From assembly GCA_965205945.1 (NCBI GenBank), contig CBDBIB010000003.1:128001-192000 (forward strand): DNA of 64,000 bases, in the 5' to 3' direction. The stretch is from Bdellovibrionales bacterium. GTDB taxonomy: Bacteria > Bdellovibrionota > Bdellovibrionia > Bdellovibrionales > UBA1609. The position numbers were made by a program, and so were the translations under genes. Below, one piece after another: positions 3,001-13,736 of the stretch. Position 1 is the stretch's first letter. Each line of letters starts with the position of its first letter. Below the pieces are notes generated by a model. It had not been told where the DNA came from. It was given only the letters and a program-made list of their open reading frames with translations, and did no database searches.

Positions 3001-3502
3001 TTCAGATTTTTTCATGAATAAAGCTTCAAAAGAATTTAAGAAAACAGCAGACTATTTTGTAATGAAGGGTTTAAATAGAATGCTTGAAAATAAAAGGCGT
3101 GCAGCAATTAAAGAGTTTAATCAAGCCATTAAAGAAAATTCAAATAACTTAGTGGCAAGAGTGAACTTATCATCACTTTATGTGCAGTATGGTGGATATG
3201 AAGAAGTTTATAAGCTTTTAAAAAATAAACTTTTAGATGCTGCCATGCCTGAAAATATGAAGCGCTTTGTATTAAATAATTACGCATTAGGTTTAATTGC
3301 TAAAAATAGAGTTAATAAAGCTGTCATAGAACTTAAAGCAGCACTTTTAAATAAACCTGATTATATAAAAGCAATTGGAAATCTAGCAATTGTTGAAAAA
3401 GTTATTCAAAAAAATAAAGCCCAGCTATACTTTAGTCAATATAAAAAGCTTGCTAAGACACAGGTAGACCTTGATAGAATATTATTAATGGAGAATTTGT
3501 AA
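2..3502 (+). CDS. Large TPR protein of Agl-Glt gliding operon (GltD/AgmU-like, with fused C-terminal GltE/AglT-like TPR region); 5'-partial
   Basis: Frame is open from base 2 (KLSKEIKQLH...IWMRLAKAY), so it starts upstream of the window. Many TPR motifs, GltD-like segment (ALLNTPLPKGL...EPFKKNAITVYKKAL), directly upstream of gltF/gltG/aglRQS-like genes. Confidence 0.8.
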   Translation, partial: KLSKEIKQLHLLSKRLESANAKQSIWMRLAKAYSEKAALLERREQEKYDKELKMYFAGSISKKPFLDQSQSQVYNKRAVNLYKDYIKKYPKALDLDQALFFLGYNSVGLDRSKEAAKYYQILSNRFPKSDYIDEANLSLGDYYFDKNKRILAKKYYSLVVANTRNSLGVLALYKLSWVERKMGNNQRALKNLLKVIRLSKDTGLRNQRSIALAKEAKKDLPMFYVEAGDPKNAIVYFTNIMRKDEASKAIEKLAYYYVDKGDKEEAKYLFSKLIKINPQNDKSFDYQYSLVNMQASTGRADLYEKELYKWIKGFGPKSKWAQTLKDKEKVQNSLKKIEISLRSHILKIHNDSRRLKSRAAMLRVEKGYELYLKSFTDTLYNPEMQFYYGELLYELKAYKDAYQAYQKVKPSKYTKKAKLNSILSLEKIIPQDEEVRAKVGKSIEEHTLNKNEELFIQAGKAYLADIKNKEQRVDIKYRIASIYYSHNYFDKSEVIFKEIIKEYPNSKYSRYASDLIIDSYKLKKDYDGLVKVGSELIKIGNKVGGVQTSKVKTVLERSAFKKIEGMVATAQPIQIAKAFVEFTKTYPNSVFQDQAFYNSGIYYEKAGELKNALASYAMVSDSLKNKSLYKNAQKFSTFLYEKLGYLIKAARLYETMSEYSDILTQDKIKYLTNASIIREAFNDPVGLKKIFLNLKKYDQKKNVYKYEFRLAKVYERIGNYKLAKNHYIKFFNTAKGEPFLLIKSARRIGDYYQNIKDYNKAHYWFKASTLVYKKFKNKGAKAAVSDVAYSAYRLSDKLFYKYLNIKIPLDPKKQQQVVNQKLVLVGEIEKKMTNVINFDDGYTIVSALNRMGQVHQHLAFALLNTPLPKGLTSKEIKEYQKLLQKTVEPFKKNAITVYKKALEKGRALNVYNNDYLTIFFELSKIDKDYAHYKVPFLSATKLMQYDGDTALKYPDLIEFMKKPENIFLDEISTLLSKNPEDTKVLYMLAHYYHIKGFSGVSDFFMNKASKEFKKTADYFVMKGLNRMLENKRRAAIKEFNQAIKENSNNLVARVNLSSLYVQYGGYEEVYKLLKNKLLDAAMPENMKRFVLNNYALGLIAKNRVNKAVIELKAALLNKPDYIKAIGNLAIVEKVIQKNKAQLYFSQYKKLAKTQVDLDRILLMENL

Positions 3503-3503
3503 A

Positions 3504-3767
3504 TTGATAAAGTGGAAAGTGCTTATTCCCTTAGTGATAATATTGTTTTGTGGTGTTTCTTATGGACAGTTAGAAGCAAAGCCACAAAAAAAAACAACTA
3601 AGCTTGATTTTGAAGATGAGCTTATTCAAGGTGATATTTCATCTCCAGATCTCTTGTTTATTTTAAAGAGTAAAAATGTTAATTATGGCAAGTTGTTAAA
3701 GCTTAGAGATAATTTTTTGCCTGAAATTAATGAAACTAAGCATGATGTCTTAAGAGGGTCTAAATGA
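3504..3767 (+). CDS. Small exported GltF/CglF-like gliding protein
   Basis: Signal peptide, then TKLDFEDELIQGDISSP motif and LRDNFLPEI tail; typical position between TPR gene and GltG. Confidence 0.7.
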   Translation: MIKWKVLIPLVIILFCGVSYGQLEAKPQKKTTKLDFEDELIQGDISSPDLLFILKSKNVNYGKLLKLRDNFLPEINETKHDVLRGSK

Positions 3768-5893
3768 AAGGCCTTGTAGTTATTAGGGTATATAGAGAAA
3801 AAAGATTAATTGCAGTAAAACAGTTCCTATCGCCACAAATAGTAATTGGTCGTCAAAGTGATGCAGGCTTATCTTTAAATGATGAACTTATTTCGCCTCT
3901 TCATGCAGTCATAGAAAAAAGAGATGAGGGTTATTATATTTCAGATCTAGGCTCTGAGAGTGGTCTTTTTATTAAAGGTAAGAAGGTTTTAGAGGCTCTT
4001 GTTAAAGAAGGGGAACCTATTGAAATTGGACCATATTTTATTAAATTTTATGTGGGCATTCCAAAGCTTTCTTCTCTAGATGATTTTGAAAAAGAACATA
4101 GTAAGATTCAAGAGTCTGAAAGAAAGGTTGTAGAAAATAAAGTTAAGGAGGTTGATTTTTTAAAAGAGGATCTGCCTTTGCTGCCAAAGGATACAGATCT
4201 AGAGGAGCCTTACTTAGAAGAGGATCTGCCCTCACTGCCAGAGGATACAAACTCAGAGGTGCCTTATTTAGAAGATGAAAGAACTAGTCCAAACATAATA
4301 CTAGATGAGTCTTTAGATATAAAAGGTGAGAAAGCTGGTGTAAAAATTCAAAGTAGAAATATTGAAGATGCAATAGGTGCTCAAAAATTAGAGCCAATAT
4401 CTGGGGGTTATATAGCTCCAGTAAGTAACTATGATAATGTAGATGAAATTATAGATCCTTATTCAAGAGGACCTATATTAGAAGTGGTCATTTGTTGGAA
4501 AGAAAGAATTTTAAAAACGTATCATTTTTCTAATAAGCGTCAGATATTTATGTCTAATTCTAAAAATACAGATATACATATTCCCATTTCTAATAAAAAT
4601 ATGAAGTATAAGCTGGTTTCTTTTTCTGATGAATGCATTGTTCATGTAGCCAGTTCTATGGAGGGTGAACTTTATTATGATAATAAGCGTGAAAATCTTA
4701 AAGCTTTAACAACGGGCAGTGCTTTAATGAATTCAAGTCTTGGCGGGAAGGAGCTTAAGCTTGATCAAGGTCAAATGGTGAAACTTAATTTACTAAATGG
4801 CAAAGTTCTTGGGTATATAAGATTTGTTAAAGACACTCCTGCTACTATAAAGACTTCAGTTTTTGATTTTACGACATCTGAAGCTGTGGGAATTTTTATG
4901 TCCTTTGCATCAGTTTTGGTTATTGCACTGTATATGCTTTTTTATGTGCCGAGCACACTAGATGACACTGAGGATTTGTTACAAGACAGACTTAAAAAAG
5001 CAATAATTACGTTTAATCCCCCTCCTAAAGTAGATATTCCTAAAATATCAGTCCCAAAGGTTATAAAGCCTAAAATCACAAAAGTTTCTGAAAAACTTGC
5101 CAAAGTAAAAGCAAGCAGACCAAAACCAAAAGTTAAATCACCTAAAAAAGGTGCTCCTAAATCTGCTGCTCCAAGTAAAGTTAAAACTACGAATAAAGTA
5201 GGGTCGTCAAAACCTGGAGGCTCTATTAAAACAGGCAAAAAAGCCTCAAATATGAAAACAGCTAAGAAAGATCTTACAAAAACAGGGCTTCTTTCAGTTT
5301 TGAGTGGAGGGGGTAAAAACAAAGCTTTAAATAAAGCAACCTCAGGAGTAGGAACTACAATAGGTGTTGCTGACTCTAAAACAGGTTATCAAGGACAGCT
5401 TTCAGATCGAAAGGGTGAGGACATTGGAACAAAGCTTCAGGCTGGTCGTGGTGGAGAAGGTTTAAAGCTTATAGGTATTGGTGATTTAAAAACGTCAAGT
5501 AGAGGTGGTGGAGAAAATACTTATGGTGTCGGTGAGCTTGGAGGCAAAGGAACATCTACAATTATAGGTTTGGATGGGCTTAGTGAAGAGTTTTCTAGTA
5601 CCATTGATAAAGATGCTATTAGGAGATTGATTCAAAAAAATAAAAATTCTCTTAAAGGTTGTTATGATAGGGCCTTAACTCAGAACCAGAATTTAAACGG
5701 TAAGGTTTTACTTAGTTGGAGAATTGTTAATGGGGGAAAAATGACTCAACCTAAAGTTAAGAGTTCAACGTTAAATGATGTGGAAGTTGAACAATGCATA
5801 ATTAGCAGACTAAGGATTTTGACATTTCCAGACCCAGGGCCAAATGAAATCGCAGAAGTGGATTACCCGTTTGTATTTAGTAGATCAAAGTAG
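3764..5893 (+). CDS. GltG/AgmX/PglI-like protein (N-terminal FHA, single TM, Pro/Lys/Gly-rich linker, C-terminal TonB-C-like domain)
   Basis: FHA motifs IGR, SPLHAVI, DLGSESG; TM near aa 375-395; C-terminal LKGCYDRAL...LNGKV...CI...FP...YPFVF. Confidence 0.85.
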   Translation: MKGLVVIRVYREKRLIAVKQFLSPQIVIGRQSDAGLSLNDELISPLHAVIEKRDEGYYISDLGSESGLFIKGKKVLEALVKEGEPIEIGPYFIKFYVGIPKLSSLDDFEKEHSKIQESERKVVENKVKEVDFLKEDLPLLPKDTDLEEPYLEEDLPSLPEDTNSEVPYLEDERTSPNIILDESLDIKGEKAGVKIQSRNIEDAIGAQKLEPISGGYIAPVSNYDNVDEIIDPYSRGPILEVVICWKERILKTYHFSNKRQIFMSNSKNTDIHIPISNKNMKYKLVSFSDECIVHVASSMEGELYYDNKRENLKALTTGSALMNSSLGGKELKLDQGQMVKLNLLNGKVLGYIRFVKDTPATIKTSVFDFTTSEAVGIFMSFASVLVIALYMLFYVPSTLDDTEDLLQDRLKKAIITFNPPPKVDIPKISVPKVIKPKITKVSEKLAKVKASRPKPKVKSPKKGAPKSAAPSKVKTTNKVGSSKPGGSIKTGKKASNMKTAKKDLTKTGLLSVLSGGGKNKALNKATSGVGTTIGVADSKTGYQGQLSDRKGEDIGTKLQAGRGGEGLKLIGIGDLKTSSRGGGENTYGVGELGGKGTSTIIGLDGLSEEFSSTIDKDAIRRLIQKNKNSLKGCYDRALTQNQNLNGKVLLSWRIVNGGKMTQPKVKSSTLNDVEVEQCIISRLRILTFPDPGPNEIAEVDYPFVFSRSK
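4166..4273 (+). repeat. Intragenic 54-bp tandem duplication (2 diverged copies) in the GltG-like gene
   Basis: Copies start at 4166 and 4220 (gaggatctgcc...) and encode EDLPLLPKDTDLEEPYLE / EDLPSLPEDTNSEVPYLE. Confidence 0.9.
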
Positions 5894-5921: not shown

Positions 5922-6590
5922 ATGTTTGAGAATTGCACAGAAAGTTATAACTCATGGATAGCAGTACATTTTTGCCAAGGTGGATTTGTAATGCTTTTAA
6001 TAGGTGTTATTTTTTTACTGACACTATTTTTAATTATTGAAAGATTTATGGTTCTTTCAAAGCTTGCTGTTGATAAGGCAAGCGTGTCTTCTAATATTAG
6101 AGGCATGCTTTTAAGAGGAGATGTTAGACAAGCAATTACTTTTTGCGATAAAACACCTGCTCCATTAACAAATACAGTCCAAGCAGGGCTCATTCAAGTT
6201 TTAAATAGAAGACCTGATGAAGAAGTTCAAGTTGCCATGGATGCTTCAGTTTTAAGAGAAACACCGAAATTAGAAGGTTGGGTGAGCTTTCTAGCTATTT
6301 TTGGTAATGTCGCAGTTTTAGTAGGGTTGCTTGGAACAATCATTGGTATGATTAAATCATTTGGTGGTGTGGCAACAGTAGATCAGGCTGTAAAAGCGCA
6401 GATTCTTGCAGAAGGTATTTCTGAAGCTTTAAATTGTACGGCATTTGGTTTGTTTGTAGCAATTTTAGCAATTATTACTTATGGATTTTTTCAAATTAAA
6501 ATTTCAAGAACTATGAATGATATGCTTGAAATTAGTATGGATATAATGAATTTAGTAACTTCTAATAGAGATAAAATTCAAAGAACTTAA
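5922..6590 (+). CDS. MotA/TolQ/ExbB proton-channel protein (AglR-like)
   Basis: LVGLLGTIIGMIKSF and GISEALNCTAFGL motifs; ATG 5922 preferred (GGAGG at 5912-5916). Confidence 0.9.
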   Translation: MFENCTESYNSWIAVHFCQGGFVMLLIGVIFLLTLFLIIERFMVLSKLAVDKASVSSNIRGMLLRGDVRQAITFCDKTPAPLTNTVQAGLIQVLNRRPDEEVQVAMDASVLRETPKLEGWVSFLAIFGNVAVLVGLLGTIIGMIKSFGGVATVDQAVKAQILAEGISEALNCTAFGLFVAILAIITYGFFQIKISRTMNDMLEISMDIMNLVTSNRDKIQRT

Positions 6591-6616
6591 TAAATTTGAT
6601 TTAAGGAAGAACTAAA

Positions 6617-7096
6617 ATGGCTCAAATTGATGATGGTAAAGGTAAAAAATCAGCAAATGTTGAATTAAATATTGTTCCTGTCATTGATTTAATGAGTGTT
6701 TTAATTGTATTTTTACTTATTACAGCGGTTTGGAATCAAATTTCAATGATTCAATTAGGAACTTCTATATACGGTAAAAAAACAAATGATGAACAAATTA
6801 AACAACCAAAGAGTGCTCATATTACATTAAGGCTTGATATTCAAAGAAATGGTTATATTTTATTAATTGGTAAAACAACCATTTCTATTCCATTAAAAAA
6901 TGGTAAGTACAATGAAGTAGCTTTAAAAAAAGAGCTTTTAAAAATTAAAAAAAGATACCCTGAAAAAGAAAATATCTTTTTGTCTATTGATGATAAGCTT
7001 AATTATGAAACGATGGTTTTAGGTATGGATACTGCAATAGGGGAAGGTTTTCCTAACATTGATATAACTACAGGCAGTAGCAAACAGGGAATTTAA
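6617..7096 (+). CDS. ExbD/TolR family protein (AglQ-like)
   Basis: ELNIVPVIDLMSVLIVFLL TM motif; follows the TolQ homolog. Confidence 0.88.
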   Translation: MAQIDDGKGKKSANVELNIVPVIDLMSVLIVFLLITAVWNQISMIQLGTSIYGKKTNDEQIKQPKSAHITLRLDIQRNGYILLIGKTTISIPLKNGKYNEVALKKELLKIKKRYPEKENIFLSIDDKLNYETMVLGMDTAIGEGFPNIDITTGSSKQGI

Positions 7097-7098
7097 TT

Positions 7099-7683
7099 AT
7101 GGCTATTTATGTACCAGGAAAAAGAGACAAATGTGGAAGATTAAAAGTTGCAGCTAGATCAGCGGTTGCCGTTCTTTCTCTTACAGCGATGGTGGATATG
7201 TTTACAGTTTTAGTTGTATTTTTACTCATGAATTATCAGTCCACAGGTGAAGTTATTCCTATGAAAGAAAATGTGGATCTTCCACAAGCAAGTTCAGTGG
7301 ATGAGCTTGAACCTGCAAATGTTGTTGTAATAGATCCTGGGGGTATAGAGTTAAATGGTAAAAAATTTGAAACATTCGCTGAAGTTAAGGCTTCACAAAA
7401 TTGGATTCTTCCAAAACTTAAAAAAGCTATAGAAAAGCAAATTATTAAAGATAACAAAGAAAAAAAAGGTTCTGTGGCTGCTAAAATTCAAGATGCTGTG
7501 AAAAATGCTAAAGCTCCAGGTTCTACAAAAGCCTATATTGTTAGAAAAGTTACCATTCAAGCGGATAAGAGGACAGATATTCTTTCCTTAAAGAAAGTTA
7601 TGTATACAATTACTAAAGCTGGTGGAGAAGAGATAAATTTTGCAGTTTTAAAGATTCCTGATAAATCTATAGTTCCTGAATAA
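7099..7683 (+). CDS. ExbD/TolR family protein (AglS-like)
   Basis: LTAMVDMFTVLVVFLL and IQADK motifs; second ExbD paralog as in aglRQS. Confidence 0.88.
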   Translation: MAIYVPGKRDKCGRLKVAARSAVAVLSLTAMVDMFTVLVVFLLMNYQSTGEVIPMKENVDLPQASSVDELEPANVVVIDPGGIELNGKKFETFAEVKASQNWILPKLKKAIEKQIIKDNKEKKGSVAAKIQDAVKNAKAPGSTKAYIVRKVTIQADKRTDILSLKKVMYTITKAGGEEINFAVLKIPDKSIVPE

Positions 7684-8356: not shown

Positions 8357-11350
8357 TTAAGATTGGTCTAAGAGGTCTGGGGAAAAACCTTGTCTAACAA
8401 GGTTTTCAGTTATAACACGAGGCTCTAAGAAGTTTTTAAGGTAATCAGGCCCTCCTGTTTTACTACCTAATCCGGAAAGTTTATAGCCTCCAAAAGGGTG
8501 TCGATTAACTATTGCACCAGTGATACTTCTATTTATGTATAAATTTCCACATTCAATTTCTTTGCAAGCTTGTTTAATGTGTGATGGTAATCTGGAGAAA
8601 ACACCTGAAGTTAATGCGTACTTAGTACTGTTTACAATTTTAATTGCACGATTAAAATTATGAGCTTTTATAACAGCTAAAACAGGCCCAAAGATTTCTT
8701 CTTGAGCAAGTTCACTGTCGGGGGCAACATCGAAGAATACGTGTGGTTCAATGAAACAACCAGTGTTAGAACAATCTTGAGCTTTTATAAACTCATATTT
8801 TTCTTTATTAGTTTTAATAAAACTAAGAATTTTATTATAAGACCTTTGATCTACAACAGGCCCTAGATAAAATTTTGGATTGGTGCTATCTCCAGTGTAA
8901 AGACTTTGAACAGCATTTTTTAATCTAAGGGTGAATTTTTCATATATTCCCTCTAAAACAACAACTCTACTTAAAGCTGAGCATTTTTGTCCAGAAAAGG
9001 CAAAAGCAGAATCAAGAACAGCTTGTATAGCCTGATCTAAATCAGCATCAGAATCTATAATTAAGGCATTTTTCCCCCCCATTTCAACAACACATTTTTT
9101 AACATGATGCTGTTCATCTAAGGTTTGTGAGGCTTTATTGATTATCTGAAGCCCTACAGCTTTAGAGCCGGTGAAACTAATGACAGAAACTTTAGGGCTT
9201 TCAACAATTCTAGCTCCAACACGTTCACCTAAACCAGGTAGGAAATGACAGGCTTCCTTTGGAATGCCAGAGTTTATGATTATTTCATAAAGTTTTAATG
9301 CCGTTAAACTACTTTGTTCAGCAGGCTTTATTAAGACAGTGTTTCCTGTAACAAGAGCAGAAACAGTCATTCCACAAAGAATCGCTAAAGGAAAGTTCCA
9401 AGGAGCAATGACAGAGACCACACCGCGAGCTTTATAGTGGTATAAGTTTTCTTCTCCGGGAGTAGAGCCAACACGAAATGGAAGGTTAAGTTTTTTCATA
9501 TCGTTTGCGTAGTATCTGCAAAAGTCAATGGCCTCAGTGATATCTGCATCAGCTTGATTCCATGGTTTTCCAACTTCAATGCTTTGAAGAGAAGCAAGTT
9601 TAAATCTATTCTCCTCAAGAAGATCAGCTACCTTATTGATTAAGGTAGAGCGACTAGAAACCAAAGTATTTGACCAGGTTTTTTGATAGTTAAAGGCTGC
9701 GGTTAAAGCCTCATCAGTTTCAGTATTAGTGGCTTCAAAAATAGTGTAAAGCGTTTGTTTGTGGTTGTTTGGATTTATACGATGGATTGTGCTTGTACCA
9801 GATCCGATTGTGCCATTAATAAAAGCATTAACTTTTAATGGTCCTTGATTAAACTCAAGCTTCCATTTTTCTAAGGCTTTATAGAATTTATCTCTGTTCT
9901 TACTTTGAGTAAAGTCAAGCAAGGGGGCGTTTGTAAAAGAGTTTTTCTTTTCTTTAAAAAACAAGCTTTCATCTGCATGAAACTGAGGTGTAGCTAAAAT
10001 TTTATTATGATCAATGTCTTTTTTTATCTTATTTTGTAAAAAAGATTGATTTGAAGAATTCTCAAGTAAACGTCTTACTAAATAAGCCATTCCAGGAACT
10101 AGGTCACCAATAGTAGCATATTCTCGTACTCTATAATACATTTTAGCAAAGGAACTTTTAAAGTTATCAGCCATTCCATAAAGCATTTGAATTTCAAAAG
10201 ATTTTTCTGGAATATTATTTTTTTTTGCAAAGGTAAGGGTCTCAGAAAGAGATCGGATATTATGAGAGCCTAAAGCAGTAAAAATATATTTATAGTTTAA
10301 AAGAAGTTTTTTAGCACATTTTTCAAAATTATAGTCAGAGTTTTCTTTATTTGTATAAACAGGCAGAGGCCAATGATTTTGCTTAGCATGTATGATTTCA
10401 AAATCCCAGTAAGCGCCCTTAACAAGTCTTATTGTAAAAGGAGTCGCCCTTTTTTTAGAAAAATCTATGAGCATTAAACAATCCTCATAACTGTCTCGAA
10501 GATAAGTTTGAATAACAATACCCCAGTGAGGGTATTGTTTAAATTCATCAAGCATTATGAGTTCTTTAAAAACTTCAAGTGTAAGGTTTTTATATTCATA
10601 ATGCTCCATATCTATATTTATAAAAACACCAAGTTTTTGTGCGGTTCTAAAAATAGGTTTTAAGCACTCTACTAAAGTGGCTTTGGTTTCTTCCCAGGCT
10701 GCAATTTTAATTTGAGAGTAAAGGGAGGAAAGCTTTACAGAAACATTTACGAGTGGAATTTTTCCAAGATGATTTTCATCAAGTAAAGAATTGTATTCCC
10801 AGTTTTTAGATTCAGTATGAAGCTTTTTAATTAAATCTAGGTATCTTTCTTTATATTCCTTAGCCTCTGGTTCTGAGAGCGTAGCCTCACCTAAAAGATC
10901 GACTGTAAAGGTCCAGTTCTTTTTTCTATTTTTATTTAATTTTTGAATAGCTTCTTTAGGTGTTTCTCCAGTGATAAAGAGCCGAGCCATGTCTTTTATG
11001 TTTTTATCCACAGATTTTGCAACAAGATTTGGAGCTAATTGACCAATGCTCGTGCTAGCTTGAAAAATAGAAGGCATTTTTCCATTCTTATCTTCAAAAT
11101 ATTCTCTAACATGGTTTAAAATATCATCACCAGAATTTAAATATGGAAACACATCTACAAATCTAAACATACGAGTTTTAAAATCAGTGCTTTTCATAGA
11201 CCAATCCATAACCTTTAAATACCACCACTCTTTATTTAAAATTGATTTTTTAGAAGAATAATTTTGACTATTTTTAAAAACATTCATTCCAAATTTTATA
11301 ACATTCGTATGATTATTGCTCTTAGGCAAAGCTTTAGATTTAAACCACAT
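8357..11350 (-). CDS. putA: Bifunctional proline dehydrogenase / P5C dehydrogenase
   Basis: PRODH motifs (VDLLGE, RLVKGAYWD, YLVRRLLEN) and ALDH motifs (PWNFP, FTGS, EMGGKN, FSGQKCSA, EEIFGP). Confidence 0.97.
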   Translation of the reverse strand: MWFKSKALPKSNNHTNVIKFGMNVFKNSQNYSSKKSILNKEWWYLKVMDWSMKSTDFKTRMFRFVDVFPYLNSGDDILNHVREYFEDKNGKMPSIFQASTSIGQLAPNLVAKSVDKNIKDMARLFITGETPKEAIQKLNKNRKKNWTFTVDLLGEATLSEPEAKEYKERYLDLIKKLHTESKNWEYNSLLDENHLGKIPLVNVSVKLSSLYSQIKIAAWEETKATLVECLKPIFRTAQKLGVFINIDMEHYEYKNLTLEVFKELIMLDEFKQYPHWGIVIQTYLRDSYEDCLMLIDFSKKRATPFTIRLVKGAYWDFEIIHAKQNHWPLPVYTNKENSDYNFEKCAKKLLLNYKYIFTALGSHNIRSLSETLTFAKKNNIPEKSFEIQMLYGMADNFKSSFAKMYYRVREYATIGDLVPGMAYLVRRLLENSSNQSFLQNKIKKDIDHNKILATPQFHADESLFFKEKKNSFTNAPLLDFTQSKNRDKFYKALEKWKLEFNQGPLKVNAFINGTIGSGTSTIHRINPNNHKQTLYTIFEATNTETDEALTAAFNYQKTWSNTLVSSRSTLINKVADLLEENRFKLASLQSIEVGKPWNQADADITEAIDFCRYYANDMKKLNLPFRVGSTPGEENLYHYKARGVVSVIAPWNFPLAILCGMTVSALVTGNTVLIKPAEQSSLTALKLYEIIINSGIPKEACHFLPGLGERVGARIVESPKVSVISFTGSKAVGLQIINKASQTLDEQHHVKKCVVEMGGKNALIIDSDADLDQAIQAVLDSAFAFSGQKCSALSRVVVLEGIYEKFTLRLKNAVQSLYTGDSTNPKFYLGPVVDQRSYNKILSFIKTNKEKYEFIKAQDCSNTGCFIEPHVFFDVAPDSELAQEEIFGPVLAVIKAHNFNRAIKIVNSTKYALTSGVFSRLPSHIKQACKEIECGNLYINRSITGAIVNRHPFGGYKLSGLGSKTGGPDYLKNFLEPRVITENLVRQGFSPDLLDQS

Positions 11351-11745
11351 AGCAAATCCCCTTAAATAAAAAACTTATTAGTAGTCTATATTTTTAGAAA
11401 AAGGGATGTTTTAGGTATTTTTTTTCTTAGAATCTGACGCAGAGCTAAAAGAGCCTTATTTGTTACATTATAAACTTTGAGCTGGTGTTTTAGGTTTTAT
11501 TTTAAATCAGAGAACTTTAATTTAAAGTAGAATTTATTGACGTTTTATCCTAAAAAAAACTAGCCTTTAATTTAAGAATAGAAAAATGTAAGTTATTGAA
11601 ATAAAAAGGTAATTTTTAAAATTGCCTTATAAAACCCAGGGGTTACGCATGAGATTTTTTTTAGGCAGTAAATAGAGCCTGTAAATTAAATTGTATAAAT
11701 GCTTAATAATGTACTAGGGTTAAGCCTTCTTAAGATAAAAGAACT

Positions 11746-11768
11746 AAAGGGCTCATGATGAGCCCTTT
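11746..11768. repeat. Perfect inverted repeat / hairpin 6 nt downstream of the DUF1566-like remnant stop codon
   Basis: AAAGGGCTCAT-G-ATGAGCCCTTT (10-bp stem with 3-nt loop). Could be a terminator or a DGR target-recognition hairpin. Confidence 0.85.
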
Positions 11769-11774
11769 TAAGCC

Positions 11775-12095
11775 TCAAAACCGCCGCACACACCGAACGA
11801 GCTGATCAGTGGGCTTATAAAAGTAATACTGATAGCCATCATCTGAGAACTTCTGGCCCCACGCACCCTCATTATTGTACTCTGTGGACAGTCAATACTA
11901 ATTAGTTAAATCTTTATTACTTTCACCATGATCAATTCCAAAGGTTGATATATAATTTTGTAACCCTGGAATATCGTAAAAATTTTGCGAACTATTATTC
12001 CAGCCTTTACTTAAACTATCAGTACCAGAACAAGTTACTGTAAAATCATCTAATGCATAAGAATTTGCCCCTGAACCTCCTAAAACACTTCCTGA
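11775..12095 (-). pseudogene. Remnant of a DUF1566 (Lcl-C/CLec-fold) protein ending in a DGR variable-region-like segment
   Basis: Manual translation: SGSVLGG...TCSGTDSLSKGWNNSSQNFYDIPGL...N*Y*LSTEYNNEGAWGQKFSDDGYQYYFYKPTDQLVRCVRRF*. Fits the YWSSTE..AW...F..G......K.....VRCVR consensus; two in-frame stops, no start codon. Confidence 0.8.
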
Positions 12096-12231
12096 TTATC
12101 TGACTCATAAGTGAGAGTTTTTCGTTAAATAAAAGTATGGTTTGAGTAAAGCATACCTTTTAAGTATATAAAAATCTTGGCAGGAAAGAAAGATATCTAT
12201 AACCTTATCATCAACAGTAAATTTAGTTTTT

Positions 12232-13515
12232 TTGGAGATGAGTGTGTTAAAAAAAGTAGTTTTAATTGCAAGTTCAAGAATTCCTTTTACAAGATCATTT
12301 ACTTACTATAAAAATAATACAGGTCAAGAGTTGATGACAGCAGCATTAAAAAATCTTGTTCAAAAAATGAGTCTTGAGGGCGGAAAAATTGATGATGTTG
12401 CTCTTGGTGTAGTGATGGTGCATGGATCTGATTGGAATATCTGTAGAGAATGTGTATTAAGCTCTGGGCTCTCACCACTAACACCAGCCTACGGTATTCG
12501 AAGGGCTTGTGGGACAAGTCTTGAAACAATTATTGCTATAGCAAATAAGATAAAACTAGGGCAAGTAAGGGTTGGAATTGCAGGGGGGTTTGACACTAAT
12601 AGTGATGCACCTATTGAGTTTAAAAGAAACTTTTCTAGTAAAATAATAAGGTTTAATCAAAGTAAAACAATAATGGAAAAAATTAAATCTGTACTTAATT
12701 TTAATATTCAGGATTTAAAGCCACTTTTTCCAAGAGTGGTTGAGGTGCGAACTAGAAAATCTATGGGAGAGCATTGTGAACTCATGGCTCAGCAATGGCA
12801 GATTACTAGAGATGATCAAGATCGATTTTCATTTAAAAGTCATCAAAAAGCAGCTGAAGCATATGAAGAGGGTTTTTATGATGATCTTGTTTGTGAATTT
12901 AATGGAGTAAAAAAAGATAGTATTCTTAGACTTGATACTACGGTGGAGAAACTTTCTAAACTAAAGCCTGTTTTTGATAAAAGTGAACTAGGAACTTTAA
13001 CTGCGGGGAACAGTACAGCTTTAACCGATGGTGCGTCATGTTTATTGTTGGCTGATGAGGAATATGCAAAAGAAAAAGATTTACCAATTTTAGCTTATTT
13101 TGTAGATGCACAAGCAGCAGCAGTTGATTTTGTTAAAGGAGAGGGTTTGTTAATGGCCCCTACAATAGCAGTGGCAGAGCTTTTAAAAAGAAATAATCTA
13201 GTATTTGATGATTTTGATTTTTTTGAAATACATGAAGCTTTTGCAGCTCAAGTTTTATCTACATTTAAAGCTTGGGAAAATGAGGAGTATTGTAAAACTA
13301 GATTAGGATTAGATAGGGCATTAGGAAGTATTCCAAGAAATAAGCTTAATATTAAAGGCGGCAGCCTTGCTTTAGGGCATCCTTTTGGTGGAACAGGGGT
13401 AAGAATTAGTGCAAATCTTTCAAAAATTCTTAATCAAGCAGGAAAAGGTAGAGGTCTTATTTCAATTTGTACAGGTGGTGGAATGGGAGTTGCTGCTATT
13501 TTTGAAAAATATTGA
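12232..13515 (+). CDS. Acetyl-CoA C-acyltransferase (thiolase, FadI-like)
   Basis: ACGTSL, HEAFAAQ, GGSLALGHPFGGTG, ICTGGGMG. Confidence 0.95.
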   Translation: MEMSVLKKVVLIASSRIPFTRSFTYYKNNTGQELMTAALKNLVQKMSLEGGKIDDVALGVVMVHGSDWNICRECVLSSGLSPLTPAYGIRRACGTSLETIIAIANKIKLGQVRVGIAGGFDTNSDAPIEFKRNFSSKIIRFNQSKTIMEKIKSVLNFNIQDLKPLFPRVVEVRTRKSMGEHCELMAQQWQITRDDQDRFSFKSHQKAAEAYEEGFYDDLVCEFNGVKKDSILRLDTTVEKLSKLKPVFDKSELGTLTAGNSTALTDGASCLLLADEEYAKEKDLPILAYFVDAQAAAVDFVKGEGLLMAPTIAVAELLKRNNLVFDDFDFFEIHEAFAAQVLSTFKAWENEEYCKTRLGLDRALGSIPRNKLNIKGGSLALGHPFGGTGVRISANLSKILNQAGKGRGLISICTGGGMGVAAIFEKY

Positions 13516-13736
13516 GATTAAAAAATATATAAAGTAATAGAGTTTTCTTATGGCGTATTGCCGTTATAAAGGAGTTTAGGATAAAATTAAAGTTTTTTTT
13601 AAAATCAATAAACTTAGAGTTAAATAAGAAAATCTGTATAGATTAGGTGATTTTGATTTACTTACAAAGTTATTTTAAGGTTAAATTGTCATTAAACAGC
13701 ATGATCTTAATCTTTTAAAGGTATACTTTAGTACTC

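What the first reader, a model, noticed from the sequence alone, without database searches (positions are those of the whole stretch)
11746..12095. Hidden DGR variable-region-like target (DUF1566 remnant plus hairpin) in an apparent intergenic gap
Seen: the minus strand reads ...Y*LSTEYNNEGAWGQKFSDDGYQYYFYKPTDQLVRCVRRF*. By hand count the last 117 nt (11775-11891) are about 49% GC versus about 31% for the preceding 204 nt of the same frame, with three CGG Arg codons in a genome that mostly uses AGA. Most non-conserved positions are NNY codons (TAC, GGT, GGC, TAT, TTT, CCC, ACT, CTC). The GC-rich end GTTCGGTGTGTGCGGCGG is followed, 6 nt after the stop, by a perfect hairpin. Established: DUF1566/CLec C-termini are common DGR targets; VRs derive from AAY-rich template repeats by adenine mutagenesis and are followed by an IMH and a hairpin. 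Inference: this is a decayed remote target of a DGR located elsewhere or lost, implying a hypervariable ligand-binding protein family (prey or host recognition?) in this lineage.
Basis: partly seen in the sequence, partly recalled or inferred. Interest (0 to 1): 0.85.

Follow-up and report, generated by a model that had tools for sequence, protein, structure and literature searches.

The report
Fossil DGR target gene fragment
The gap between two housekeeping genes holds the broken remains of a surface-lectin gene whose tip was once rewritten by a mutagenic retroelement that a sister species still carries but this genome has lost.

Summary
Window 11716-12101 (minus strand) is a pseudogene fragment of an Lcl_C/DUF1566 C-type-lectin surface protein. 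It has no 5' end, lacks 66 codons internally, and has two Trp codons turned into stops. It keeps a GC-rich 3' tail (48.7% GC against 30.9% upstream) and a perfect 10-bp hairpin 6 nt after the stop.

A same-genus genome (G029) carries three identical DGR cassettes in the order target, bAvd, TR, RT. The remnant tail aligns to that TR: 19 of 38 TR adenines are mismatched, against 17 of 82 other bases. The one intact paralog in this genome (C3:308465-309277) shows 21 of 36 against 6 of 77. Between the remnant and that paralog, 24 core codons differ 15/13/2 times at positions 1/2/3, which is the AAY signature.

This genome (97.3% complete, 5 contigs) has no RT, Avd or TR, so the fragment is a dead, left-over DGR target. 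Left-over targets after DGR loss were already described in Treponema denticola. This is therefore a new member of a known kind.

The more interesting material lies outside the window. The congener has 24 VR-type gene ends, many on ~1250-aa surface proteins, and occurs in the same sequencing runs.

The parts
11716..12101 (-). Full extent of the pseudogene fragment. It is homologous to the 3' two-thirds of an Lcl_C/DUF1566 lipoprotein gene plus its 3' flank.
   Evidence: Local alignment to the own paralog locus begins at window 12101 and runs past the stop into the 3' flank. G029 copies match window 11716-12096 at 69-87%. There is no homology upstream of 12101, so the signal peptide and 5' end are missing.
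11901..12095 (-). AT-rich upstream part of the remnant. It corresponds to about aa 101-165 of the intact paralog P0001 and lies before the lectin core.
   Evidence: 82% DNA identity to C3:308767-308947. Differences are spread evenly over codon positions, 12/12/12 of 64 codons. GC of 11892-12095 is 30.9%.
11892..11900 (-). Deletion junction and the two in-frame stops: TAG at 11898-11900 and TGA at 11892-11894. The intact copies read TGG TAT TGG (W-Y-W) here.
   Evidence: Codon alignment with the paralog and with G029 copies. Just upstream of this point 66 codons of the lectin core are missing (my count on the and translations).
11770..11895 (-). Former variable region (VR), alignable to the congener's template repeat. 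It includes the GC-rich 3' end GTTCGGTGTGTGCGGCGG (the IMH-like part).
   Evidence: Alignment to the G029 TR gives 19 of 38 TR-A sites mismatched against 17 of 82 other sites, with 6 gap columns. Variable codons sit opposite the TR's AAY codons. GC of 11775-11891 is 48.7%.
11775..11777 (-). Original stop codon (TGA) of the target ORF, after ...VRCVRRF.
   Evidence: 19 of the 24 G029 gene ends printed have exactly ...VRCVRRF* (the others read VRCVRWF*, IRCVRRF* x3, or are frameshifted), as does the own paralog.
11746..11768 (-). Perfect inverted repeat AAAGGGCTCA-TCA-TGAGCCCTTT followed by a T-rich tail. It is the conserved post-VR hairpin of this target family and also looks like an intrinsic terminator.
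   Evidence: Fold: -10.4 kcal/mol, z -4.4. Terminator-like site. The AAAGGGCT...AGCCCTTT repeat (or a shortened form of it, at least 6 bp) starts 6 nt after the stop in 13 of 26 copies examined, including 7 of the 9 G029 copies with 0-2 non-A mismatches.
11716..11745 (-). Degraded second 3'-flank palindrome. Intact copies read CTTAAGGAGGC...GCCTCCTTAAG; here it reads ATCTTAAGAAGGCTTAACCC.
   Evidence: Alignment. In the own paralog and in G029 this second repeat forms a 12-16-bp stem.

Best explanation
Window 11716-12101 (minus strand) is a dead, left-over target of a diversity-generating retroelement (DGR).

It was once the 3' part of a gene for a surface protein ending in an Lcl_C/DUF1566 C-type-lectin domain. 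In a DGR, a reverse transcriptase with its Avd partner copies a template repeat (TR) into cDNA, misincorporates opposite template adenines, and the cDNA overwrites the last ~110 nt of the target gene (the VR). The GC-rich IMH-like end and the downstream inverted repeat are inferred to have guided that replacement.

- The tail is adenine-depleted and GC-rich, so it stands out in a 31% GC genome.
- Its variable codons are NNY, because they derive from AAY codons.
- It carries otherwise rare CGG codons, copied from the TR-type scaffold.
- It ends with a hairpin.

The retroelement core (RT, Avd, TR) is no longer in this genome. The copy then decayed: it lost its 5' end, lost 66 codons internally, and two TGG codons became stops.

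Shown: homology, decay, the adenine-biased mismatch pattern against a congener's TR, and absence of the core from the assembly.
Inferred: that diversification happened in an ancestor of this lineage, and that the hairpin served retrohoming.
For: 1. The intact paralog P0001 (G000:C3:308465-309277) is a 270-aa lipoprotein with Lcl_C at 55.2 bits, above the cut-off of 34.9.
2. The same-genus genome G029 has three cassettes of target, bAvd (PF22296, 60.8 bits, cut-off 40), TR and RT (RVT_1, 65 bits). The three TRs are identical.
3. The RT's best solved relative is 8ub7_A at E=2e-29. Group II intron and retron RTs score E=4e-8 or worse.
4. Against that TR, the cognate G029 VRs have 9-15 mismatches at A sites and 0 at the 82 non-A sites of the TR core.
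5. The window remnant has 19 of 38 A sites against 17 of 82 non-A sites mismatched (p=0.0023). The own paralog has 21 of 36 against 6 of 77 (p=1.7e-8).
6. Independently of any TR, remnant and paralog differ at codon positions 1/2/3 by 15/13/2 in 24 core VR codons, against 12/12/12 in 64 upstream codons (Fisher p=0.014).
7. Over 18 ungapped copies, 43% differ from the TR at A sites against 8% elsewhere (Mann-Whitney p=1e-10).
8. The hairpin is a conserved 3'-flank element, present in 13 of 26 copies.
9. The DGR core was not found in this genome: RVT_1, 23S_rRNA_IVP and bAvd profiles gave 0 matches at E<=1. tblastn with the G029 RT and Avd gave no hit at E<=0.01. blastn with the G029 avd-to-RT stretch, which holds the TR, found no second TR-like copy beside the own paralog's VR and the shared 3' flanks. 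An ungapped scan with the two VR tails, scored for non-adenine mismatches, also found no TR.
10. A second decayed Lcl_C remnant with internal stops follows a large surface-protein gene at G000:C1:283790-283969.
Against: - The TR used for the test comes from another species. The remnant has 17 non-adenine mismatches and two 3-nt indels against it, so the fit is that of an old, drifted copy. The A-bias for the remnant alone is moderate (p=0.0023).
- The Pfam match of the 38-aa peptide itself is below threshold (E=0.052).
- The genome is 97.3% complete, in 5 contigs that break inside repeated large surface-protein genes. Absence of the core therefore means absence from the assembly.
- The runs that hold this window also hold contigs 100% identical to the G029 avd-TR-RT. 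A DGR-bearing congener lives in the same sample, so import of target DNA from it cannot be excluded.
- The hairpin also fits a plain intrinsic terminator.
Confidence: 0.8

Rival explanations
1. The fragment is a DGR-diversified target, but this lineage never had its own DGR. The target DNA was imported by recombination from a DGR-bearing congener living in the same habitat and then decayed.
For: - The intact paralog sits on a 1517-nt segment that is 95.8% identical to G029, with non-homologous flanks. The putA region is only about 85% identical between the two genomes.
- An IS-like transposase fragment lies next to it at C3:309452-309691 (the IS label is recalled from the N-terminal motif and was not tested).
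- Runs X1 and X2 hold both this window (0.97 and 0.95 of its words) and contigs identical to the G029 cassette.
- The remnant lies in a 2.1-kb stretch (window 11508-13594) that G029 lacks between putA and recO.
Against: - The remnant is only 69-87% identical to any G029 copy. That is about the ortholog-level divergence of putA, so it is not a recent import.
- A second remnant is attached to one of this genome's own large surface-protein genes, in the same architecture as the G029 targets.
- The thiolase gene beside the remnant is native to the genus, at 79% and 69% in G072 and G062.
Confidence: 0.12
2. The DGR core is still present in this organism but is missing from the assembly or bin. It could, for example, be identical to the cassette seen in the same runs. 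The genome would then still have a live system, and only this copy would be dead.
For: - Contigs covering avd-TR-RT with 0 differences to G029 (715 nt and 1339 nt, depth ~45) are in the runs that hold the window.
- Contig ends of this assembly fall inside the repeated large surface-protein genes. In G029 such genes precede the cassettes.
Against: - There is no RT, Avd or TR on any of the 5 contigs.
- The cassette contigs are letter-identical to G029, which is a separate species-level genome and explains them fully.
- This genome's only intact VR has 6 non-A mismatches to that TR, and its G029 counterpart has 5. Even where the DGR is present, this copy is not being re-written.
- Seven of the ten large surface-protein ORFs found here (nine with the shared N-terminal leader plus the 5'-cut one at the start of C3) end in DUF285 repeats, not in an Lcl_C domain.
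Confidence: 0.05
3. The fragment has no DGR history. It is an ordinary pseudogene of a lectin paralog family whose binding loops diverged under diversifying selection. The GC-rich tail and hairpin are just scaffold codons and a terminator.
For: - The Lcl_C match of the peptide is weak.
- The hairpin qualifies as a terminator.
- No RT is present in this genome.
Against: - Selection on residues does not preserve third codon positions while randomising positions 1 and 2 (15/13/2).
- Selection also does not place the variable codons exactly opposite the AAY codons of a TR that sits between bAvd and RT genes in a congener.
Confidence: 0.03

Closest known systems
Legionella pneumophila DGR and its target LdtA (VR class CLec2, target category 'd' = DUF1566/DUF823/Fib_succ_major in Wu et al. 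2018, PMC5758913; passages read)
   Same: The VR lies at the C-terminus of a DUF1566-type lectin domain. The intact paralog here is a lipoprotein: it has a lipobox LSLAAC, read by eye. The cassette has Avd, TR and RT. A GC-rich IMH-like end is followed by an inverted repeat. The model of the paralog domain best matches the Legionella Lcl C-terminal domain (8q4e_A, E=2e-5, TM 0.55).
   Different: The window copy is a pseudogene in a genome without the retroelement. In the congener the same domain caps ~1250-aa proteins, and there are 24 VR-type ends served by three identical cassettes. No sequence comparison with LdtA itself was run.
Left-over DGR target genes in Treponema denticola isolates that lack RT and TR (PMC4891356; passages read)
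   Same: Target genes persist in genomes without the DGR core. Their VRs differ from the TR of related DGR-bearing strains mostly at adenines. The authors interpret them as leftovers of DGR loss.
   Different: The Treponema targets are FGE-sulfatase-type lectins (recalled). The passages I read describe genes, not fragments. Here the copy is truncated, internally deleted and stop-bearing, and the comparison is between species of a genus rather than between strains.
Bordetella phage BPP-1 DGR (Mtd, IMH, downstream GC-rich inverted repeat), as summarised in PMC5758913
   Same: The mechanism is taken to be the same: adenine-specific mutagenic retrohoming into a C-terminal lectin-fold VR. The boundary is set by a GC-rich IMH, and an inverted repeat downstream raises efficiency. 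The congener's RT is closest to chain 8ub7_A, which I recall, without a call, to be the BPP-1 RT.
   Different: This system is chromosomal with many remote targets, not a phage with a single target. The inverted repeat here is AT/GC-mixed and doubles as a terminator-like site.
Bdellovibrio bacteriovorus MAT fibre Bd2740 with a C-type-lectin tip (PMC10769870; passages read)
   Same: The second-best structural match of the paralog domain model is the Bd2740 tip (8oks, E=2.8e-3). Both cases are families of ~1000-aa surface proteins with interchangeable C-terminal tip domains.
   Different: No sequence homology of the long N-terminal parts was found. The only PDB sequence hit of the 1257-aa protein is the Lcl domain. 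In that paper the word 'retroelement' occurs only in a reference title. Whether the present organism is predatory is unknown.

Membership tests
DGR variable region (target side) | VR at the 3' end of an ORF encoding a C-type-lectin-fold domain (here Lcl_C/DUF1566) | tested here: met
   The paralog P0001 and the G029 1257-aa target both score 55.2 bits on PF07603 (cut-off 34.9). The remnant is homologous to them at DNA level. The AF2 model of the paralog domain is only moderate (pLDDT 65.4), and its top Foldseek hits are the Lcl C-terminal domain and C-type lectins. The remnant's own peptide reaches only E=0.052.
DGR variable region (target side) | Differences from a template repeat concentrated at template adenines | tested here: met
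   Remnant: 19 of 38 A sites against 17 of 82 other sites (p=0.0023). Own paralog: 21 of 36 against 6 of 77 (p=1.7e-8). The TR is from the congener G029.
DGR variable region (target side) | Only A-to-N differences from the TR, allowing minor exceptions. This is the criterion for assigning live non-adjacent targets in PMC5758913. | tested here: not met
   17 non-A mismatches and 6 gap columns for the remnant. By contrast, 9 G029 copies have 0-2 non-A mismatches.
DGR variable region (target side) | Cognate TR, RT and accessory Avd in the same genome | tested here: not met
   0 matches for PF00078, PF05635 and PF22296 at E<=1. No tblastn hit of the G029 RT or Avd at E<=0.01. No TR found by blastn with the G029 avd-to-RT stretch or by an ungapped A-tolerant scan with the VR tails. 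The genome is 97.3% complete, in 5 contigs.
DGR variable region (target side) | GC-rich IMH-like 3' end followed by an inverted repeat | tested here: met
   GTTCGGTGTGTGCGGCGG is followed by the 10-bp hairpin at 11746-11768. The repeat is shared by 13 of 26 copies. A function in homing was not tested.
DGR variable region (target side) | Intact, expressible target ORF | tested here: not met
   No 5' end upstream of 12101. 66 codons are deleted. TAG at 11898-11900 and TGA at 11892-11894.
DGR core (congener G029 cassette, used as reference) | RT of the DGR clade with adjacent Avd and TR | tested here: met
   RVT_1 65 bits and bAvd 60.8 bits, both above cut-off. NCBIfam DivGenRetAVD gives E=5e-16 but is below its 80-bit cut-off. 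Best PDB relative is 8ub7_A at E=2e-29. A 125-nt TR lies between avd and RT and is identical in three cassettes. The IGNLTSQ and YVDD motifs were read by eye; their status as DGR hallmarks is recalled.

The most novel reading that the evidence does not exclude
The window fragment is one end-state of a genus-level natural experiment.

The congener G029 (2.4 Mb) uses three identical DGR cassettes to rewrite, in trans, the lectin tips of a large family of surface proteins. It has 24 VR-type gene ends, 9 of them with 0-2 non-adenine mismatches to the TR, and many cap ~1250-aa proteins. That exceeds the maximum of seven non-adjacent targets per DGR listed in the 2018 survey.

This genome (1.87 Mb), which occurs in the same sequencing runs, has discarded the retroelement. 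It let the lectin tips decay and carries DUF285 repeat tips on the homologous long proteins instead.

If the long proteins are fibre-like adhesins for prey or host recognition, as the structural match to a Bdellovibrio fibre tip hints, this would be a cellular analogue of phage tail-fibre tropism switching, with a built-in loss-of-DGR comparison.
Probability: 0.35. Interest if true: 0.7.

Novelty: new member of a known kind. Interest (0 to 1): 0.42.

Why it matters
On its own the fragment is a molecular fossil. It shows that annotation-free reading can detect former DGR targets by composition alone: an adenine-poor, NNY-rich tail with a hairpin in an AT-rich genome. It also dates a loss of targeted hypermutation in this lineage.

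Its value is as a pointer. It led to a sister species with an unusually large DGR target repertoire on long surface proteins, co-occurring with a DGR-free relative. That pair could be used to ask what maintaining, or giving up, a DGR costs and buys.

Tried and rejected
- An ungapped, adenine-tolerant scan of the whole genome with both VR tails returned only A-rich low-complexity stretches, with 82-101 mismatches of 129. No TR was found.
- Rfam search of 11300-12300 at E<=1 gave 0 matches.
- The promoter scan found no more sites than shuffles (3 against 3.8).
- Synteny: G029 has putA next to recO, with window 11508-13594 absent. The thiolase orthologues in G072 and G062 share no flanks with the window within the 1.5 kb fetched on each side. 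The ancestral arrangement of the locus stays open.
- Read laying was meant to look for a second, diverged RT/avd in the runs that hold the window. Only one contig each, identical to G029, covered avd and RT. A missing second version in contig data is no proof of absence, and depth could not be assigned to either genome.
- VR positions in that output show many alternative letters. These cannot be told apart from paralogous copies, so no claim of ongoing diversification is made.
- PDB sequence search with the G029 Avd gave 0 hits at E<=0.01. The 1257-aa target hit only the Lcl domain.
- The structure model is only moderate (mean pLDDT 65.4; the other four models score 35-52). I use it only for fold class.
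- I did not run the large protein-database searches, so the wider distribution of this target family beyond the 101 family genomes is not known.

Full report
**1. Observation**

- GC is 48.7% for 11775-11891 and 30.9% for 11892-12095. The window as a whole is 31.4% GC.
- CGG makes up 1.9% of Arg codons in this genome's long ORFs and AGA 53.9%. The tail has three CGG.
- Six nucleotides after the stop lies a perfect 10-bp stem with a 3-nt loop at 11746-11768. Its DNA folding energy is -10.4 kcal/mol, z = -4.4 against 200 shuffles. It is followed by a T-rich tail and is the only terminator-like site in 11300-12300.
- The stretch lies in the 881-bp gap between putA (8357-11350, minus strand) and a thiolase gene (12232-13515, plus strand).

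All elements of the observation are confirmed.

**2. What the stretch is**

A DNA search of the window's own genome (G000; 1.87 Mb, 5 contigs, 97.3% complete) found one paralogous locus. C3:308767-308947 matches the upstream part at 82%, and C3:309254-309303 matches the 3' end at 87%. The VR-like middle was too different to align by BLAST.

That locus is an intact gene, C3:308465-309277, encoding the 270-aa protein P0001. It has a lipoprotein-type leader and an Lcl_C (PF07603, formerly DUF1566) domain at 55.2 bits, above the cut-off of 34.9.

Alignment of the two loci shows what happened to the window copy:

- It starts abruptly at 12101, which corresponds to about residue 98 of P0001. It therefore has no start codon and no signal peptide.
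- It lacks 66 codons of the lectin core (my count on the and translations).
- It reads TAG TAT TGA where intact copies read TGG TAT TGG.
- Homology continues through the stop, the hairpin and a second, here degraded, palindrome to about 11716.

It is a pseudogene fragment. The Pfam match of its 38-aa peptide alone is sub-threshold, E=0.052.

**3. The DGR signature, without any template**

I compared the remnant with P0001 codon by codon.

| Region | Codons compared | Differences at position 1 / 2 / 3 |
|---|---|---|
| Core of the tail | 24 | 15 / 13 / 2 |
| Upstream homologous part | 64 | 12 / 12 / 12 |

The difference in distribution gives Fisher p=0.014. Randomised first and second positions with a retained third-position pyrimidine are what adenine mutagenesis of AAY codons produces. 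Ordinary divergence or selection on residues does not produce this pattern.

**4. The template exists in a congener**

A search of 101 genomes of the same family with P0001 found 31 matches in one same-genus genome, G029 (2.4 Mb, 10 contigs), and none in the three other genomes of the genus. An RVT_1 search of the same genomes found three full RT genes in G029, each next to such a match. It found none in G000 or in the other three congeners.

The three G029 loci have the order: target gene (716-1257 aa, ending ...VRCVRRF*), a 138-aa ORF, a spacer, and a 383-aa RT.

- The 138-aa ORF is bAvd (PF22296, 60.8 bits, cut-off 40). NCBIfam DivGenRetAVD gives E=5e-16 but stays below its own cut-off.
- The RT scores 65 bits on RVT_1. 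Its best solved relative is 8ub7_A at E=2e-29, far ahead of group II intron and retron RTs at E=4e-8 or worse. I recall 8ub7 to be the Bordetella phage DGR RT. That identification is from memory.
- The spacer holds a 125-nt template repeat that is identical in all three cassettes. Its asparagine codons (AAC AAT AAT AAC AAT ... AAT CAG AAT AAC AAC AAT AAG AAC AAT) lie exactly opposite the variable codons of the gene ends.

**5.

Mismatches against the G029 TR, by type of TR site:

| VR copy | Mismatched at TR-A sites | Mismatched at other sites | Fisher p |
|---|---|---|---|
| Cognate G029 VRs (TR core) | 9-15 of 38 | 0 of 82 | not computed |
| Own intact paralog P0001 | 21 of 36 | 6 of 77 | 1.7e-8 |
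| Window remnant | 19 of 38 | 17 of 82 | 0.0023 |

The remnant alignment also has 6 gap columns (two 3-nt indels).

Across 18 ungapped copies, a mean of 43% differ from the TR at A sites and 8% at other sites.

The remnant is therefore a former VR of this DGR family, but an old and drifted one. Its non-adenine mismatch rate (21%) is close to the 14-21% divergence of its non-VR part from the G029 copies and to the ~15% divergence of putA between the two genomes. In G029 itself the 24 VR-type ends form a series:

- 9 have 0-2 non-A mismatches.
- 6 have 3-10.
- 9 have 13-23.

The remnant resembles the last group. By eye it is closest to the copy in L066. The best BLAST match of its upstream part is G029:C10:343591-343781, at 86%.

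**6. The core is gone here**

In G000 nothing of the DGR core was found:

- RVT_1, 23S_rRNA_IVP and bAvd profiles gave 0 matches at E<=1.
- tblastn with the G029 RT and Avd gave no hit at E<=0.01.
- blastn with the G029 avd-to-RT stretch, which holds the TR, matched only the own paralog's VR and the shared 3' flanks, not a second TR-like copy.
- An adenine-tolerant ungapped scan with the two VR tails found no TR either.

What remains of the system is the intact paralog, the window fragment, and a third piece. That piece is a stop-riddled Lcl_C core at C1:283790-283969, directly after a 1704-aa surface-protein gene. This is the same architecture as the long G029 targets.

**7. Caveats and rivals**

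- The assembly breaks inside repeated large surface-protein genes.
- The two runs that hold the window (0.97 and 0.95 of sampled words) also contain contigs with 0 differences to the G029 avd-TR-RT (715 nt and 1339 nt). The simplest reading is that both species are in the same sample. These data cannot exclude that the cassette also belongs to this organism.
- The intact paralog lies on a 1517-nt segment that is 95.8% identical to G029, with unrelated flanks. That is much closer than putA, so at least this copy may have moved between the two species recently.
- The remnant itself is not recent. It sits in a 2.1-kb stretch (window 11508-13594, remnant plus thiolase) that G029 lacks between putA and recO. 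The thiolase is native to the genus.

I therefore hold 'left-over of a DGR lost in this lineage' at 0.8, 'imported target DNA' at 0.12, 'core present but unassembled' at 0.05, and 'no DGR history' at 0.03.

**8. The hairpin**

The repeat AAAGGGCT...AGCCCTTT, or a shortened form of it (at least 6 bp), begins 6 nt after the stop in 13 of the 26 copies examined. That includes 7 of the 9 low-mismatch G029 copies. A second palindrome follows in many copies.

According to the survey of Wu et al. (PMC5758913; passages read), a GC-rich inverted repeat after the IMH is needed for efficient homing in the Bordetella and Legionella DGRs and is detectable in 34% of DGRs. Here the repeat also fits an intrinsic terminator. 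Which role it plays was not tested.

**9. Fold**

An AlphaFold2 model of P0001 residues 140-270, built with 21 G029 paralogs as the alignment, is of moderate quality (mean pLDDT 65.4). Its Foldseek hits are:

- the Legionella pneumophila Lcl C-terminal domain (8q4e_A, E=2e-5, TM 0.55);
- the C-type-lectin tip of the Bdellovibrio fibre protein Bd2740 (8oks, E=2.8e-3);
- a long list of C-type lectin-like proteins.

This supports the lectin fold expected for a DGR target.

**10. Comparison with what is known**

- DUF1566-type VRs are a recognised DGR target class, exemplified by the Legionella lipoprotein LdtA (PMC5758913, passages read).
- Target genes left behind in genomes that lost RT and TR, still differing from a relative's TR mostly at adenines, were described for Treponema denticola isolates (PMC4891356, passages read).

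The window finding is thus a new member of a known kind. My two literature searches on DGRs were not designed to test whether this organism's DGR is in print. I do not know the organism's name, so I make no claim about that.

**11. Beyond the window**

The congener's repertoire is large: three identical cassettes and 24 VR-type ends, of which 9 are near-perfect A-only matches. That exceeds the maximum of seven non-adjacent targets per DGR in the 2018 survey.

In G000, seven of the ten homologous long proteins (nine with the shared N-terminal leader plus the 5'-cut one at the start of C3) end in DUF285 repeats instead of Lcl_C. G029 also has DUF285 proteins. A tip 'swap' is therefore a hypothesis, not a result.

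DGR-like gene neighbourhoods, with an Lcl_C-like hit, a TR-like hit and an RT within 1-2 kb, also appear in five other genomes of the family: G005, G035, G049, G064 and G067 (coordinates).

**Verdict**

The object is an inert fossil of a well-known system. Interest is moderate, mainly as a lead to the congener's multi-target DGR.

Noticed in passing
G029 loci L049 (minus strand), L050 (plus), L051 (plus: target 3098-5245, avd 5376-5789, TR 5973-6097, RT 6119-7267): The same-genus genome has three DGR cassettes with letter-identical TRs and 24 VR-type gene ends. Nine ends have 0-2 non-adenine mismatches, and many sit on ~1250-aa proteins hundreds of kb from any RT. The cognate VRs of two cassettes (L049, L050) are identical to each other. 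This is an unusually large target repertoire for a 2.4-Mb genome.
   Followed up: partly
G000:C1:283790-283969 (minus strand), locus L083: A second decayed Lcl_C remnant (NYGSANMGVIATRTQ...KLV*GGYDELLPNYYKLNLMYTNRFVIPG*) lies directly downstream of the stop of a 1704-aa surface-protein ORF (C1:284084-289195). It is a former long DGR-type target whose tip has rotted.
   Followed up: partly
G000:C3:308157-309661 (locus L009 1193-2697): The only intact Lcl_C gene of this genome lies on a 1517-nt segment that is 95.8% identical to G029 (L010). The flanks are unrelated, whereas putA is ~85% identical between the genomes. This suggests recent exchange between the two species. A short ORF resembling a transposase N-terminus follows at C3:309452-309691 (label recalled, not tested).
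   Followed up: partly
G000 paralog VR (C3:309155-309277) compared with G029 L053: Between these near-identical counterparts, 5 of the 6 VR differences fall on TR-adenine positions (by eye). This could be a trace of limited DGR action after the copies separated, or chance, since the numbers are small.
   Followed up: no
G000: nine ORFs of 1266-2838 aa with one shared N-terminal leader (for example C3:99974-107212, C1:59486-67999, C2:54840-61928) plus one 5'-cut ORF at the start of C3 (C3:2-3541): This is a family of ten large surface-protein ORFs homologous to the first ~1040 aa of the G029 DGR targets. Seven of the ten end in long arrays of DUF285 repeats (WDTSKVT.M..MF...) rather than an Lcl_C domain. 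Several contig ends fall inside these genes.
   Followed up: partly
window 11508-13594: This 2.1-kb stretch (remnant plus thiolase gene) is absent from G029, where putA is followed by recO after a ~228-bp spacer. The thiolase has orthologues in two other congeners (79% and 69%) but only distant paralogues (35% or less) in G029 and G051.
   Followed up: partly
window 11716-11768 compared with G000:C3:309278-309360: The target family's 3' flank has two palindromes. The window copy keeps the first perfectly and has a degraded second. The intact paralog has a degraded first (AAAGGATTC/GAGCCCTTT) and a perfect second.
   Followed up: no
G029 locus L071 (C11:67396-68106): One G029 copy with only 1 non-adenine mismatch has a 1-nt deletion inside the VR, opposite an AAY codon. 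The deletion frameshifts the tail (...WSSTEYNFTMRGSSGF...). It may be a homing error in a recently active target.
   Followed up: no
runs X1, X2: The same coded runs hold this window and contigs identical to the congener's avd-TR-RT. Two species of the genus, one with and one without the DGR, therefore appear to share a sample.
   Followed up: partly
G005:C3, G035:C55, G049:C96, G064:C49, G067:C326: In five other genomes of the family an Lcl_C-like hit, often a short TR-like hit (matching P0001 residues ~230-270), and an RT lie within 1-2 kb of each other. DGRs with this target class seem recurrent in the family.
   Followed up: no
G029 L051:7392-7679 and 14 tblastn matching segments in G000: A 96-aa ORF just downstream of the G029 RT gives 14 tblastn matching segments scattered over G000 contigs C1-C3. 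It probably belongs to a repeated mobile element and was not characterised.
   Followed up: no
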